64,000 bases of DNA, from the NCBI RefSeq assembly GCF_041886205.1, contig NZ_CP169029.1; one strand, given 5' to 3'. Each line of letters starts with the position of its first letter. Within the stretch, counting starts at the first letter, position 1. Below the pieces are notes generated by a model that saw only the letters and a program-made list of their open reading frames with translations, was not told the DNA's origin and ran no database searches. The stretch is from Escherichia coli (lineage in GTDB: Bacteria; Pseudomonadota; Gammaproteobacteria; Enterobacterales; Enterobacteriaceae). Below are positions 34,461 through 39,893 of the stretch, piece after piece. The position numbers and the translations under genes are program-made.

Positions 34461-34719
34461 TAGCAATACTCTTCTGATTTTGAGAATTGTGACTTTGGAA
34501 GATTGTAGCGCCAGTCACAGAAAAATGTGATGGTTTTAGTGCCGTTAGCGTAATGTTGAGTGTAAACCCTTAGCGCAGTGAAGCATTTATTAGCTGAACT
34601 ACTGATCGCCAGGAGTGGATGAAAAATCCGCATGACCCCATCGTTGACAACCGCCCCGCTCACCCTTTATTTATAAATGTACTACCTGCGCTAGCGCAGG
34701 CCAGAAGAGGCGCGTTGCC

Positions 34720-34970
34720 CAAGTAACGGTGTTGGAGGAGCCAGTCCTGTGATAACACCTGAGGGGGTGCATCGCCGAGGTGATTGAACGGCTGGCCACG
34801 TTCATCATCGGCTACAGGGGCTGAATCCCCTGGGTTGTCACCAGAAGCGTTCGCAGTCGGGCGTTTCGCAAGTGGTGGAGCACTTCTGGGTGAAAATAGT
34901 AGCGAAGTATCGCTCTGCGCCCACCCGTCTTCCGCTCTTCCCTTGTGCCAAGGCTGAAAATGGATCCCCT
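34720..34970 (+). promoter_or_regulatory. lysC leader containing the lysine riboswitch (L-box)
   Basis: Long structured 5' leader immediately upstream of lysC, the known position of the E. coli lysine riboswitch; boundaries approximate. Confidence 0.6.
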
Positions 34971-36334: not shown

Positions 36335-36478
36335 TATTTCCCTACTGGCGTATAACGCTCACCAATTGTTATACGCCATCCTCACTGAAAATATAGATTA
36401 AATAATATCTGAAAAATAAAATCACTCCTGTAGAACAGTATTATAATCACCGAAAAATATTATTTAACAGGAGTGTTA

Positions 36479-37405
36479 ATGGCTACTTTAATGGAAAAAG
36501 ATGCACTTTTAAATGGCACCAGTCAGTGCATCGCGTTTTTATCAAATATCGTTGATAATTGCTCAGTTTCGTCACGTCAGGATTCAGGCGATGATCTCAC
36601 ACGATTAGTCAGCTATCGCGATTATCTTTACTCTACCCCCGCTGAACTTGTTGATTTTACACAGGGAAAGAGTCACCTTCAGCAGATTAGAACTCAATAT
36701 CAGCATGAATTCAACAATACTACGCATTCAGAAAATAAAGCATCTTTTGATTCTATTTGGCAGCGTCTGACAAATCATGAAGTCACACCGCAACAGCATC
36801 CCATTGGTTTTGTTTTAGGTGGGCAACCCGGAGCAGGTAAATCATCTCTGATTGAATTAGCCAAAAGAGAGACAAAAGATAATATAATGATTATTAACGG
36901 TGATGATTTTCGATTTCTACACCCTGATTTTAATTATATCTACCAAAATTATGGGGATGATTTTGTTACCCATACAGCGAAATTTTCCGGCGAAACGGTC
37001 GAACGTGCAATTGAGAGAGCGATAGTCAGTAAACTCAACATTGTTGTCGAAGGAACATTTCGTAATGCCGCTACGCCGTTACAAACATTAAAAAAACTCA
37101 AAGATGCAGGCTACCAAACAGAAGTCATGATAAAAACAACCTCAGCGGCATTAAGCTGGGAAAGCACCAATGAACGGTATAATAAGGACAAAGAGGCGGG
37201 AAATATTGCCCGAAAAGTGGATAAAAACCACCATGATATCGTCACCGGTTTGCTGGCAGAAAATGCCCGCAAGGTGTTTGCTTCGAACCTGTCAGATAAG
37301 TTTGCGGTGTATTCGCGTGAGAAGATGATATTTAGTTCACAAGCGGCAACGAATGACGATATTGCAACGCTTATACAGAATGAAATCAGCGGGAATACAC
37401 AATAA
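36479..37405 (+). CDS. Zeta-toxin-family P-loop kinase with N-terminal extension, EzeT-like
   Basis: Walker A GGQPGAGKSS and zeta-type kinase core in the C-terminal two thirds; about 100-aa N-terminal extension; AGGAG SD 6 nt before ATG 36479; AT-rich. Confidence 0.6.
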   Translation: MATLMEKDALLNGTSQCIAFLSNIVDNCSVSSRQDSGDDLTRLVSYRDYLYSTPAELVDFTQGKSHLQQIRTQYQHEFNNTTHSENKASFDSIWQRLTNHEVTPQQHPIGFVLGGQPGAGKSSLIELAKRETKDNIMIINGDDFRFLHPDFNYIYQNYGDDFVTHTAKFSGETVERAIERAIVSKLNIVVEGTFRNAATPLQTLKKLKDAGYQTEVMIKTTSAALSWESTNERYNKDKEAGNIARKVDKNHHDIVTGLLAENARKVFASNLSDKFAVYSREKMIFSSQAATNDDIATLIQNEISGNTQ

Positions 37406-37440
37406 TAATAAGAGCTGATGGCGTGAAATAACGCCGGGCA

Positions 37441-38232
37441 TCACGCCCGGCGCATTACCGTCTGGTACATTAAGCTATCCAGTTCCTTAACGTCCCCTTC
37501 TCTGCTATCCGGTAACAGCGGTGGAATTTCCCCACGCGCCAGTTCCGCACGAATAAACGCATGTAACAATGGACGGCGCGGACCATATTCCGCTTCTCCT
37601 GCGCGCTGTTTACGTCCCAGTAATTCGTCTATTTCTGCACGTAACGGCGCATCAAGTTCACTTCCCGCCAGTAGCTCAGCAAAGCGCATTGGCGGCACGC
37701 CTTTTCCCGCTTCGACCCAGCGCACGGCCAGCAGCGGACGCAGCACGTAAAAGTATTTTTTCAGTCGAACTTCATCGCCCTGCAAATATCCGCGGAAGTT
37801 TTTCTGCGCCATCGAATAGTAATGCCAGCGCGCACGCAGCGGAGAAAACCACATTGGGACCATTGCCTTAAGCGCCGTTATCGTTTCTTCATCTTGTTGA
37901 TAGACCACCGGAGAATCCAGCCATTCTATCAGCGTCGGGTTCGCGCCTTTCAATAATCCCAGCGCCTTACGCCACTCCCAACCGGAAACATCTAACTCGT
38001 CGTCGATGGGCAGCTCGATAACATCGCGCGGCGGCTCCACCCGCAGATACCATTCCAGCGGGTGAACATACAAAAACCGTACATCGTAGTCGCTGTCGGG
38101 CGAGGCAAACCCCCAGCCGCGGCTCCCGGATTCACAGGCATACAGCACTTTCACGCCGTAGCGCCGTTCTATTTCTTTTAACTGCTGCGATACCCGTTCG
38201 CGCATCGCAGCACTGACTCCATTTAATGGCAT
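37441..38232 (-). CDS. Nucleotidyltransferase-fold protein (COG3541/PF10127-like)
   Basis: Pol-beta-type NTase motif GSRGWGFASPDSDYDV; ATG 38232 with AAGGG SD, 5 nt after the upstream gene stop. Confidence 0.6.
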   Translation of the reverse strand: MPLNGVSAAMRERVSQQLKEIERRYGVKVLYACESGSRGWGFASPDSDYDVRFLYVHPLEWYLRVEPPRDVIELPIDDELDVSGWEWRKALGLLKGANPTLIEWLDSPVVYQQDEETITALKAMVPMWFSPLRARWHYYSMAQKNFRGYLQGDEVRLKKYFYVLRPLLAVRWVEAGKGVPPMRFAELLAGSELDAPLRAEIDELLGRKQRAGEAEYGPRRPLLHAFIRAELARGEIPPLLPDSREGDVKELDSLMYQTVMRRA

Positions 38233-38237
38233 GTTAC

Positions 38238-39365
38238 TCACCCTTTGATATTAACCAACCCATGCAGAACCTGATCCAGACCGCCAAATACAGAGATGTT
38301 ATCGATCCGCTCAGCCACTCTCTCCAGCGTTTCTAGCTCTTTTAAACGCAACGCTACCGGATTGTTCTCCATGACTTTGGCGGTGTTCAGTAACGAGCGC
38401 GTCGCTGCCGTTTCTTCACGTCGGCGAATCACATTCGCCTGCGCAGATTTCTCCGCCTCAACCAGCTGCGCAAGGATATTTTTCATATCGCCAGGCAGGA
38501 CGATATCTTTCACCCCTAATGAAGCAATCTCCATACCAAATGGCAACATGCGCGATTTCACCTGTTCGCTGACAACGTCATCAATGACCTGTTTATCTTC
38601 CAGCAGTTCATCCAGCGTACGAGTACCTACCGCTTCACGCAGGGCAAATTGCAATTCCCGATACAAATGATCAATCGGCTTCGTTAACTGACTAAATGCT
38701 AATAACACGTCGCTGTAGCGCCAGTTAGCCGCGAGGTTAATCCGCAGATTGACCTTATCTTTCGTTAAGATTTCTTGCCCGCTGACTTCCAGTACCTGCA
38801 AGCGGGTGTCAACCACTTCAGTTTCAACCAGATGGTTAATTTTCCAGTACGCGGTAAGCCCCGGCGGTAACAGCGCCTGCGTTTCACCATCGATTTTCAG
38901 CACGCCTACATGCCAGGCCGGAACCTGCACCGTCAGTATCGCATCGCGGCCTTTAACAACTCCTTTGCGCCGTGGCTGTAATACCGCATTCATCACCTCC
39001 GTTTGTACCGGGACTTGCTGCGTATTCATCCGCACCAGCGTCAAATCATCCTCTACACGCCAGTACAAACGACGCGTTGATGGCAGCAGGATCTCCAGCA
39101 AAATACCGTCCATATACAACGCCCCGGCTTCAGTCTCCGACAAGTCTGCCACCAGGCAATATTTCTCCACCCAATCAGGCTGAAAGCGGCGCAAATAGTC
39201 CGCCAGCACGTCGGGAACTTCGCTACCATCCAGCGTAATCAGCAACACTTCCGGGGTATTAAACCAGGGTAAAAAATGCTCGCCTGCATGTAGCACTTTG
39301 TAGTAATCGCCGTTTCTGGAGAGTAATGCCAGCTGATCTTTTCTTACGCTTATTTTTTTAATCAT
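38238..39365 (-). CDS. SPFH/band-7 (stomatin/slipin-like) domain protein
   Basis: C-terminal half has the SPFH pattern (VNLRINLAANWRY...TLDELLEDKQVI...GMEIASLGVKDIVLPGDMKNILAQLVEAEK...); no obvious N-terminal TM segment. Confidence 0.6.
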   Translation of the reverse strand: MIKKISVRKDQLALLSRNGDYYKVLHAGEHFLPWFNTPEVLLITLDGSEVPDVLADYLRRFQPDWVEKYCLVADLSETEAGALYMDGILLEILLPSTRRLYWRVEDDLTLVRMNTQQVPVQTEVMNAVLQPRRKGVVKGRDAILTVQVPAWHVGVLKIDGETQALLPPGLTAYWKINHLVETEVVDTRLQVLEVSGQEILTKDKVNLRINLAANWRYSDVLLAFSQLTKPIDHLYRELQFALREAVGTRTLDELLEDKQVIDDVVSEQVKSRMLPFGMEIASLGVKDIVLPGDMKNILAQLVEAEKSAQANVIRRREETAATRSLLNTAKVMENNPVALRLKELETLERVAERIDNISVFGGLDQVLHGLVNIKG

Positions 39366-39893
39366 TATCTATTCCTTGCTTAACAGCCGTCGCGGAAGCA
39401 GACACGAAGCGACAGGGGAATTCCCTTTTGCCTGTTACCCGGCGTCTTTATCGGCGACGTTATCGGGGATCGCTGACTGCGCAATCCCTCATTTTTTATT
39501 TAATAAGTTACAACCAGTATTCATTTCAGGAATGAATGTGGGAATCGAACCCATAATTGGCGTCAAAGGCTGACGGAACACGCCCGGAAAACAGCCTGAC
39601 CGTTCCTGGTGTGCCGACGGGGTTTAACCCCCTTTGAAATTCAGTTTCAACGCATAGGAGTTATTGCGAGAATCGTGCCAGAAGTAAAAAAAACACCTAA
39701 TCAAATGAAAAATAAAGATTTAATAAATTATTGTTTTTTATTGGGGGAAAACTTTTCGCTAAATTTGTATCTGTATTTATCATCAATTATCAAGAAAGAT
39801 AAATATTTCAGAAGAGAATAAAGGAATATTATCAGTTCTGCTTGCAAATGAATTCCCGTACACTGAATCCATCGGCTCACTGAGGGCACCATC

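What the first reader, a model, noticed from the sequence alone, without database searches (positions are those of the whole stretch)
37441..39365. Coupled SPFH/band-7 and nucleotidyltransferase-fold gene pair inserted between lysC and yjbD
Seen in sequence: a 375-aa SPFH-domain protein with a non-canonical N-terminal half is followed 5 nt later by a 263-aa protein carrying a pol-beta-type NTase motif (GSRGWGFASPDSDYDV). Both are on the minus strand and absent from the K-12 lysC-yjbD interval as I recall it. SPFH proteins normally pair with NfeD-type partners, so an SPFH-NTase operon is not a combination I can assign to a described system. Next to a zeta-toxin gene in a small islet, it is a candidate membrane-associated sensor/effector defence pair.
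Basis: partly seen in the sequence, partly recalled or inferred. Interest (0 to 1): 0.7.

Follow-up and report, generated by a model that had tools for sequence, protein, structure and literature searches.

The report
Ligase-less remnant of an RNA-repair operon
The gene pair is real, but it is a cut-down copy of a previously predicted RNA-repair operon (soluble SPFH scaffold protein, RlaP RNA-tailing enzyme, structured leader RNA) that has lost its RNA ligase and its regulator, not a new membrane-bound phage-defence system.

Summary
A 375-aa SPFH/Band-7 gene (38238-39365, minus strand) is followed 5 nt later by a 263-aa NTase gene (37441-38232, minus strand). Both lie in a 3.4-kb islet (36335-39763) that is absent from K-12.

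The NTase is a full-length RlaP (PF10127, E 4e-95), the "RNA-ligase-associating Pol-beta" family. The SPFH protein has no transmembrane segment and no PADLOC hit. In 60 fully flanked loci from other species, its homologues sit beside RtcB (46), RlaP (27) and a divergent rtcR (41). Most are preceded by tRNA-like genes. This matches the Band-7 / b7a-tRNA / RtcB / RlaP RNA-repair system predicted by Burroughs & Aravind (2016).

Three enterobacterial genera carry the complete operon at this same lysC-yjbD locus. E. coli has lost rtcR and rtcB. It keeps a sigma-54 promoter, a covariation-supported structured leader RNA with a tRNA T-arm, and both genes under purifying selection (dN/dS 0.05-0.11). 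The module is in 1631 of 5426 complete E. coli genomes.

Most likely it acts in RNA-damage repair together with the unlinked rtcR-rtcBA locus. The function of the SPFH protein is still unknown. The zeta-toxin neighbour looks unrelated.

The parts
39787..39802 (-). Inverted repeat TTATCTTTCTTGATAA, 107-122 nt upstream of the -24 element. It is a candidate upstream activator site for an RtcR-type enhancer-binding protein. This is tentative.
   Evidence: It is the only match to TTATCY-N5-GATAA in the 64 kb window (expected 0.08). The same motif type lies next to the rtcR start codon in C. freundii, Siccibacter and Pluralibacter. It is also present in K-12-type empty sites, so it may be older than the deletion, or it may be coincidental in AT-rich DNA.
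39665..39680 (-). Sigma-54 (-24/-12) promoter, TGGCACGATTCTCGCA.
   Evidence: It matches TGGCAC-N5-TYGCW (2 matches in the window, 0.22 expected). The element is conserved in all 13 enterobacterial sequences aligned (two E. coli strains and 11 loci from other genera). In all of the non-E. coli loci it faces a divergent rtcR. It resembles the K-12 rtcBA promoter TGGCACGACGGTTGCA.
39513..39644 (-). Structured leader RNA ('module A'): a three-way junction followed by a tRNA T-arm-like hairpin (TGGG-TTCGATT-CCCA, 39539-39553).
   Evidence: In the 12 enterobacterial sequences, 96.6% of cells are paired and 13 of 30 pairs show compensatory changes, against 5.4+-1.5 in shuffles and 1-4 in slid controls. 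Covariance model R1 finds full-length matches at the same place and strand upstream of SPFH in Rhodocyclales, Burkholderia and Pseudomonas (E 1e-7 to 1e-2). In the resulting 26-sequence alignment, 26 of 30 pairs show compensatory changes. There is no Rfam or ARAGORN hit.
39383..39460 (-). Second conserved, structured part of the leader, just upstream of the SPFH ribosome-binding site.
   Evidence: The block is conserved across Enterobacterales. RNAalifold gives 20 pairs, 13 of them with compensatory changes. It was not studied further.
38238..39365 (-). Soluble SPFH/Band-7 ('slipin') protein, 375 aa. It has three tandem SPFH1-like beta modules (about residues 2-69, 70-129 and 143-186), the SPFH core, and long C-terminal helices (292-334, 336-353).
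37441..38232 (-). RlaP-family RNA 3'-nucleotidyltransferase, 263 aa.
   Evidence: Pfam RlaP PF10127, model positions 1-248 of 249, E 3.8e-95. The G-S and D48-x-D50 motifs plus D81 are invariant in an alignment with RlaPs from rtc operons and phages. It is 58-63% identical to RlaP in Burkholderia and Pseudomonas rtc operons, and 44% identical to the RlaP of a phiKZ-like phage that lies two genes from RtcB. dN/dS is 0.05-0.10.
37432..37452 (.). GC-rich hairpin (CGCCGGGC-atcac-GCCCGGCG) between the convergent RlaP and zeta-toxin genes. It overlaps the RlaP stop codon and could be a bidirectional terminator.
   Evidence: Read directly from the sequence. The terminator scan did not call it because there is no T-run. 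A weak chance-level Rfam hit (SorX, E 0.36) lies over it.

Best explanation
This is a reduced, ligase-less and regulator-less descendant of the RtcR-controlled 'Band-7 / tRNA-like RNA / RtcB / RlaP' RNA-repair operon.

What is shown. The unit consists of a sigma-54 promoter, a roughly 290-nt structured leader RNA with a tRNA T-arm, a soluble multi-repeat SPFH protein, and an RlaP nucleotidyltransferase. All are conserved and under purifying selection. The complete operon occupies the same chromosomal locus in related genera.

What is inferred. After RNA damage, such as tRNA cleavage by ribotoxins that leaves 2',3'-cyclic phosphate ends, the RtcR encoded at the unlinked rtcR-rtcBA locus activates this sigma-54 promoter in trans. 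The SPFH protein oligomerises into a ring or cage scaffold, as other SPFH proteins and MVP do. It binds the leader or tRNA-like RNA, or damaged tRNAs. RlaP adds one or two nucleotides to damaged RNA 3'-OH ends, an activity shown for Pseudomonas RlaPs. The chromosomal RtcB/RtcA then complete the repair.
For: Domain identities.

Context in other taxa. Of 60 fully flanked homologous loci, 46 have RtcB, 27 have RlaP and 41 have RtcR. Of 75 loci with enough upstream sequence, 61 have a tRNA, a tRNA-like gene or a T-arm motif within 900 nt upstream on the same strand. Random 900-nt windows from the same loci show the motif in 9% of cases. RtcB, RtcR and RtcA identities were confirmed with NCBIfam.

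Same-locus synteny. Enterobacter sp., Siccibacter and Pluralibacter have rluF-yjbD-panS-rtcR|SPFH-rtcB-RlaP|lysC-pgi. Citrobacter and Pseudocitrobacter have the same locus without rtcB.

Regulatory and RNA elements. The sigma-54 promoter is conserved. There is a UAS-like repeat. The leader RNA shows covariation.

Selection and spread. dN/dS is 0.05-0.11 within E. coli. The module is intact in 1624 of 5426 complete E. coli genomes. The rtcR-rtcB locus is in 4859 of 5426, so at least 1064 genomes carry both. K-12 RtcR is 62% identical to the SPFH-linked RtcR of Citrobacter.

Literature. RlaP adds 1-2 NMP to RNA 3'-OH ends and prefers damaged RNA (10.64898/2025.12.29.696909). The Band-7 + b7a-tRNA + RtcB association is described in 10.1101/312249. 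The SPFH gene in the Pseudomonas rtc locus is noted in PMC13086221.
Against: The 64 kb window contains no RNA ligase, no cyclase and no rtcR. Cooperation with the distant rtcBA locus and trans-activation by RtcR are inferences only.

Homology to the Citrobacter rtcR-side intergenic region stops about 10 nt upstream of the -24 element. The original activator site may therefore be gone. The candidate UAS also occurs in islet-free K-12.

The bona fide tRNA-like gene (b7a-tRNA) seen in Burkholderia, Pseudomonas and Photobacterium is missing from the enterobacterial leaders. Only the upstream 'module A' remains.

Deleting the Pseudomonas homologue (paFlo8) gave no phenotype in standard assays. No RNA binding or oligomerisation has been shown for any SPFH protein of this clade. 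RlaP products carry a 3'-OH, which RtcB cannot ligate directly.
Confidence: 0.6

Rival explanations
1. The module works on its own as an RNP, with no ligase involved. The soluble SPFH protein forms a vault-like cage around the structured leader RNA. This acts as a decoy, sensor or sequestration device for tRNA-targeting nucleases, and RlaP marks or blocks cleaved RNA ends rather than preparing them for ligation.
Confidence: 0.2
2. One reading: a membrane-associated sensor/effector anti-phage defence pair, possibly acting with the neighbouring zeta toxin.
For: The islet is variable among E. coli strains (30% carriage). It lies next to a toxin-family gene, and in one strain next to a P2-like prophage end. 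RNA-repair systems are conflict systems in a broad sense. RtcR homologues head some defence superoperons (PMC11090510).
Against: Neither protein has a PADLOC hit. The SPFH protein has no TM segment. The conserved partners are RNA-repair enzymes, not effectors. The NTase is RlaP, and its relatives in jumbo phages sit near the phage RtcB, which points to counter-defence use. The zeta gene differs in GC content, is convergent to the pair, and is absent from all 80 related loci.
Confidence: 0.1
3. A non-functional evolutionary leftover: once rtcR and rtcB were lost, the remaining genes are silent and drifting.
For: The adjacent activator gene and its proximal intergenic DNA have been lost. Sigma-54 promoters are silent without an activator. 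K-12-type strains have deleted the whole module.
Against: dN/dS is 0.05-0.11 for both genes between E. coli alleles with dS up to 0.3. Both ORFs are annotated as intact across the sampled range from 100% to 93% identity. The promoter and leader are conserved between divergent E. coli alleles.
Confidence: 0.1

Closest known systems
Band-7 / b7a-tRNA / RtcB / RlaP RNA-repair systems, predicted by Burroughs & Aravind, NAR 2016. The paper is not held in the library. Its content is taken from my memory of the abstract and from quotations in 10.1101/312249 and 10.64898/2025.12.29.696909.
   Same: The same SPFH clade and the same RlaP family. The same gene order (SPFH upstream of RlaP). The same sigma-54/RtcR-type promoter. 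An RNA element with a tRNA T-arm lies upstream of the SPFH gene. The E. coli locus is syntenic with complete operons in related genera.
   Different: There is no RNA ligase (rtcB lies between the two genes elsewhere and is absent here), no rtcA and no adjacent rtcR. The authentic-looking tRNA-like gene is missing; only the upstream structured 'module A' remains.
Pseudomonas rtc operon (rtcR | PaFlo8/SPFH - rtcB - rlaP - rtcA), and the biochemically and structurally characterised PfRlaP and PaRlaP
   Same: RlaP from Pseudomonas rtc loci is 61-63% identical to the E. coli protein, and the Pseudomonas SPFH proteins are 56-58% identical. The three catalytic Asp residues are conserved. P. nitroreducens, named in PMC13086221 as having paFlo8, shows rtcR|SPFH-rtcB-RlaP in locus L019.
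   Different: The Pseudomonas operons keep the ligase, the cyclase, the regulator and tRNA-like genes. The activity of the E. coli enzyme is untested. That PaFlo8 belongs to this exact clade is inferred, not tested.
Salmonella rsr-yrlBA-rtcBA operon (Ro60 + Y RNA / YrlA + RtcB, controlled by RtcR)
   Same: It follows the same logic: a sigma-54/RtcR promoter, a scaffold protein with a cognate tRNA-mimicking ncRNA, and RNA-repair enzymes. Reference 10.1101/312249 reports predicted interchange between Band-7/b7a-tRNA and Rsr/YrlA.
   Different: The scaffold here is an SPFH protein, not Ro60/TROVE. The leader has no YrlA match: there is no Rfam hit in the window, and only 27 bits against a gathering score of 69 in Photobacterium.
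Classical bacterial SPFH proteins (HflK/C, QmcA-YbbJ, stomatin-NfeD)
   Different: This protein has no membrane anchor, no NfeD or FtsH partner, and two extra N-terminal SPFH1-like beta modules.
Eukaryotic major vault protein (vault RNP)
   Same: Beta-repeat modules, then an SPFH-like shoulder, then a long helix. It associates with a small structured RNA. MVP gives the longest structural alignments to the model.

Membership tests
[quoted passage not shown] | Full-length match to the family profile | tested here: met
   E 3.8e-95; residues 13-259 match model positions 1-248 of 249.
[quoted passage not shown] | G-S motif and three catalytic aspartates of Pol-beta NTases | tested here: met
   G36-S37, D48, D50 and D81 are invariant in an alignment with RlaPs from rtc operons and phages. 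The paper states that three strictly conserved Asp residues are required.
[quoted passage not shown] | Adds 1-2 NMP to RNA 3'-OH ends | not testable with these tools
   Shown only for the P. fluorescens and P. aeruginosa enzymes.
Band-7/b7a-tRNA/RtcB/RlaP RNA-repair system | SPFH/Band-7 protein of the soluble, RtcB-linked clade | tested here: met
   Full-length homologues at 42-84% identity lie beside RtcB, RtcR or RlaP.
Band-7/b7a-tRNA/RtcB/RlaP RNA-repair system | RNA ligase (RtcB or another) encoded in the operon | tested here: not met
   tblastn finds no RtcB anywhere in the 64 kb window. The SPFH stop and the RlaP start are 5 nt apart.
Band-7/b7a-tRNA/RtcB/RlaP RNA-repair system | tRNA-like ncRNA (b7a-tRNA) upstream of the Band-7 gene | tested here: inconclusive
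   ARAGORN and Rfam find no tRNA here. A conserved structured RNA with a T-arm is present at the equivalent position, and it is homologous to an element that directly precedes the tRNA-like gene in other taxa.
Band-7/b7a-tRNA/RtcB/RlaP RNA-repair system | RlaP NTase in the operon | tested here: met
RtcR regulon (sigma-54, CARF-domain activator) | -24/-12 sigma-54 promoter upstream of the operon | tested here: met
   TGGCACGATTCTCGCA at 39665-39680, conserved in all enterobacterial relatives aligned.
RtcR regulon (sigma-54, CARF-domain activator) | Divergent adjacent rtcR gene | tested here: not met
   Absent from the window. Present in 41 of 60 related loci and in all enterobacterial relatives sampled.
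RtcR regulon (sigma-54, CARF-domain activator) | RtcR binding and RtcR-dependent transcription | not testable with these tools
   Only a candidate inverted repeat at 39787-39802 was found.
SPFH-NfeD / HflKC membrane scaffolds | N-terminal membrane anchor and an NfeD or FtsH partner | tested here: not met
   The maximum 19-aa hydropathy is 1.13. NCBIfam HflK/HflC scores are 20-30 bits against cut-offs of 134-660. There is no NfeD gene nearby.
Known or candidate anti-phage defence systems (PADLOC-DB v2) | Match of either protein to a defence-system model | tested here: not met
   Zero families for both proteins at E<=0.01.
Major vault protein-like cage proteins | MVP-type repeat domains plus shoulder plus cap helix | tested here: inconclusive

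The most novel reading that the evidence does not exclude
The ligase-less 'leader RNA + soluble SPFH + RlaP' unit is an autonomous bacterial RNP. A vault-like SPFH assembly would be organised around a previously uncatalogued, covariation-supported structured RNA ('module A', absent from Rfam 15). That RNA is conserved from Enterobacterales to Burkholderiales, Rhodocyclales and Pseudomonas. The unit would sense, decoy or triage tRNA damage independently of ligation.
Probability: 0.2. Interest if true: 0.75.

Novelty: new variant of a known kind. Interest (0 to 1): 0.45.

Why it matters
The role of the SPFH/Band-7 protein and its associated RNA in Rtc-type RNA-repair operons is an open question. 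The system has been predicted since 2016. In the held library I found no paper reporting experimental validation of the RNA, and the Pseudomonas SPFH knockout gave no phenotype.

About 30% of sequenced E. coli strains carry a minimal two-gene version with its sigma-54 promoter and structured leader, separate from the ligase and the regulator. This gives a genetically tractable system. It allows the scaffold/RNA/RlaP function to be separated from ligation. It allows a test of whether RtcR controls a second promoter in trans. It also allows a test of whether the conserved leader is a stable ncRNA. Finally, it corrects the likely mis-filing of this islet as a candidate phage-defence pair.

Tried and rejected
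- The search for homologous proteins with the SPFH protein returned only near-identical E. coli sequences and gave no distant relatives.
- The Burroughs & Aravind 2016 paper could not be opened by DOI, PMC id or PubMed id. Its content is cited second-hand and from memory.
- A PDB sequence search for RlaP found nothing, so the PfRlaP structure is not in the PDB copy.
- Hughes et al. 2020 does not mention Band-7 or RlaP.
- Rfam and ARAGORN find nothing in the E. coli leader. Reading it as an authentic tRNA gene or as YrlA is rejected.
- I considered an acceptor-like pairing of the leader's 5' end with the sequence after the T-arm. The stem that closes before the T-arm has the covariation support, so I kept that one.
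- I tested the idea that the N-terminal repeats are MVP repeats. They are better described as extra SPFH1-like modules.
- I tested a functional link to the zeta toxin through co-occurrence. None was found.
- I could not check directly whether the particular strains that carry the islet also carry rtcR-rtcBA. Only a lower bound is available, from the counts.
Full report
**1. Observation.**
ORF listing confirms two minus-strand genes. The first is 38238-39365 (375 aa). The second is 37441-38232 (263 aa from its ATG); a GTG at 38241 would overlap the upstream stop codon. The junction reads GGG-TGA-gtaac-ATG, so the genes are 5 nt apart.

Pfam assigns residues 147-318 of the first protein to Band_7/SPFH (E 1e-23). 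Residues 6-39 give only a faint Band_7 echo. The second protein is a full-length member of PF10127 'RlaP' (E 3.8e-95).

Comparison with K-12-type chromosomes shows that window 36335-39763 is replaced there by about 122 nt between lysC and yjbD.

**2. What the proteins are.**
RlaP stands for 'RNA-ligase-associating Pol-beta'. A 2025 preprint shows that two Pseudomonas RlaPs add one or two nucleotides to RNA 3'-OH ends, with damaged RNA preferred. It also notes three strictly conserved catalytic aspartates. The E. coli protein keeps G36-S37, D48, D50 and D81. It is 58-63% identical to the RlaPs encoded in Burkholderia and Pseudomonas rtc operons. It is 44% identical to the RlaP of phiKZ-like jumbo phages, where the gene lies two genes from the phage RtcB.

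The SPFH protein has no hydrophobic segment; its maximum 19-residue Kyte-Doolittle mean is 1.13. A confident AlphaFold model (pLDDT 91.9) shows three tandem units of about 60 residues each, built of five strands plus helices. These are followed by the SPFH core and two long helices.

Neither protein hits any PADLOC defence model.

**3. Genomic context elsewhere.**
The family is large: 544 representative clusters at E<=1e-30.

The first informative relatives came from a plasmid/chromid search:
- Citrobacter freundii has rtcR | SPFH-RlaP at the same lysC-yjbD locus.
- Burkholderia has rtcR | SPFH-rtcB-RlaP.
- Photobacterium has rtcR | SPFH-rtcB.
- The Firmicute Subdoligranulum has SPFH-rtcB-RlaP.

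A scan of one genome per species returned 80 loci. Among the 60 with full flanks, 46 encode RtcB, 27 RlaP and 41 RtcR (34 of these divergent and adjacent). RtcA follows in 16 of the 80 loci.

In 61 of 75 loci, a tRNA, an aberrant 'tRNA-???' or a T-arm motif lies within 900 nt upstream of the SPFH gene on the same strand. Random 900-nt windows show this in 9% of cases. Several loci carry whole tRNA arrays.

This is the system that Burroughs & Aravind (2016) predicted: a Band-7 scaffold with a cognate 'band 7-associated tRNA', an RNA ligase and RlaP. I could not open that paper. It is quoted in 10.1101/312249, which adds that the RNA had not been validated experimentally, and in the RlaP preprint. 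A 2026 study notes the SPFH gene (PaFlo8) inside the P. aeruginosa rtc locus and found no phenotype for its deletion.

**4. History of the E. coli locus.**
Enterobacter sp. BIGb0383, Siccibacter and Pluralibacter carry rluF-yjbD-panS-rtcR | SPFH-rtcB-RlaP | lysC-pgi. That is the complete operon at the very locus of the window. Citrobacter and Pseudocitrobacter have the same arrangement minus rtcB. Superficieibacter, Mangrovibacter and Hafnia also lack rtcB but keep rtcR.

E. coli has additionally lost panS-rtcR. It has gained a low-GC zeta-toxin-family gene on the lysC side. Homology to Citrobacter begins about 10 nt upstream of the -24 element and runs through both genes. The islet is thus a reduced resident locus rather than an insertion, and K-12 represents its complete deletion.

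The pair plus leader occurs in 1631 of 5426 complete E. coli genomes; 1624 have at least 80% of it, and alleles range from 93% to 100% identity. The canonical rtcR-rtcB locus occurs in 4859 genomes, so at least 1064 genomes have both. Between E. coli alleles, and against Citrobacter, dN/dS is 0.05-0.11 for both genes. This argues against decay.

**5. Regulatory and RNA elements.**
Upstream of the SPFH gene lies TGGCACGATTCTCGCA (39665-39680). This is a -24/-12 sigma-54 promoter, conserved in all enterobacterial relatives and similar to the K-12 rtcBA promoter.

An inverted repeat TTATCTTTCTTGATAA (39787-39802) lies 107-122 nt further upstream. It resembles repeats next to rtcR in relatives and is the only such site in the window (expected 0.08). 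It is also present in K-12-type empty sites, so its meaning is uncertain.

The roughly 290-nt leader is more conserved than the coding sequence. Its first part (39513-39644) folds into a three-way junction followed by a tRNA T-arm-like hairpin. In 12 enterobacterial sequences, 96.6% of cells pair and 13 of 30 pairs show compensatory changes (shuffles 5.4+-1.5; slid controls 1-4).

A covariance model built from these sequences finds full-length matches in Rhodocyclales, Burkholderia and Pseudomonas loci (E 1e-7 to 1e-2). The matches are always on the SPFH strand, 300-500 nt upstream of the gene, and they directly precede the ARAGORN 'tRNA-???' genes there. On the combined 26-sequence alignment, 26 of 30 pairs show compensatory changes (shuffles 15.8+-1.7; slid controls 7-12). 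This alignment is fitted to the model and so leans towards the structure.

Rfam and ARAGORN find nothing in the E. coli leader. The enterobacterial leaders therefore retain this 'module A' but not the authentic-looking tRNA-like gene. A second leader block (about 39383-39460) also shows covariation.

**6. Mechanism.**
Shown: the parts, their conservation and their ancestry.

Inferred: RNA damage activates RtcR, encoded at rtcR-rtcBA and 62% identical to the SPFH-linked RtcR of Citrobacter. RtcR then fires this sigma-54 promoter in trans. The soluble SPFH protein oligomerises as a scaffold around the leader or damaged tRNAs. RlaP restores or extends 3' ends. RtcB/RtcA, acting in trans, finish the repair.

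Weak points: the regulator and the ligase are unlinked. The original UAS may be lost. RlaP's 3'-OH products are not direct RtcB substrates. Nothing is known experimentally about the SPFH protein.

Alternatives. One is an autonomous RNP role. This is supported by the recurrence of the ligase-less form in several genera, and by SPFH + tRNA loci without any Rtc genes in cyanobacteria. The others are a phage-defence pair and a dead remnant. They are weighed in the rival explanations.

**7. Verdict.**
The 'unknown SPFH-NTase defence pair' reading is not. This is a new, reduced variant of a known but only computationally described RNA-repair operon type.

Its interest is moderate. It offers E. coli genetics for the unresolved Band-7/RlaP/tRNA-like-RNA question. 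It also exposes a conserved structured leader RNA that is not in Rfam.

Noticed in passing
window 36473-37405 (+): A lone zeta-toxin-family gene. Its best NCBIfam match is PezT at 131 bits, far below the cut-off of 470. It has about 39% GC against about 53% for the neighbouring pair, and an N-terminal extension of about 85 aa. The 140 nt upstream contain no epsilon/PezA-like antitoxin ORF. It is absent from all 80 related SPFH loci.
   Followed up: partly
L003 (E. coli B25FEP) 1-3005, equivalent to the lysC side of window 37422: In this strain, P2-like prophage tail genes and two small ORFs abut the RlaP gene where the window has the zeta-toxin gene. The junction just downstream of RlaP is therefore a variable or integration-prone spot.
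   Followed up: no
L069, L039, L064, L080, L081, L049, L025, L038, L071: In several gamma- and beta-proteobacterial genomes and MAGs, the SPFH homologue sits in or beside large tRNA gene arrays (up to 18 tRNAs in 15 kb). In L069 these are accompanied by RNase Z and an HNH endonuclease. This links the SPFH clade to accessory tRNA arrays as well as to single tRNA-like genes.
   Followed up: partly
window 39383-39460 (-): A second conserved block of the leader, between 'module A' and the SPFH start codon. In 12 enterobacterial sequences, 13 of its 20 predicted pairs show compensatory changes. It may be a further RNA domain or a translational control element.
   Followed up: partly
L028-L030, L032, L042, L047 (Gilliamella, Snodgrassella), and the 500-560-aa proteins: Some family members are about 140-190 aa longer and match the query in 2-3 stretches. 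They apparently carry additional N-terminal SPFH1-like repeats, so the repeat number varies within the family.
   Followed up: no
window 39764-39893 and L004 2501-2630: K-12-type strains without the islet still carry the TTATC-N6-GATAA inverted repeat upstream of yjbD. This is consistent with K-12 having deleted a formerly occupied locus, but it could be coincidence.
   Followed up: partly
window 54815-54830 (-): A second exact match to the sigma-54 pattern TGGCAC-N5-TYGCW (TGGCACATGGATCGCT). The downstream gene was not examined.
   Followed up: no
window 40166/40167 versus L004 2904-3035: In the window, the yjbD and rluF stop codons abut each other. K-12-type strains have about 132 nt between these genes. 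An extra intergenic element is present in K-12, or has been lost here.
   Followed up: no
window 37441-39700: The window's allele is rare. Only 5 of 1631 carrier genomes are at least 99% identical to it; the best match is pigeon isolate PT62, where an IS1 lies in the islet. Alleles diverge down to 93% nucleotide identity, which is high for E. coli chromosomal genes.
   Followed up: partly
window 34697-34893 (+): The lysine riboswitch upstream of lysC (Rfam RF00168, 99.5 bits), as expected for this locus.
   Followed up: yes
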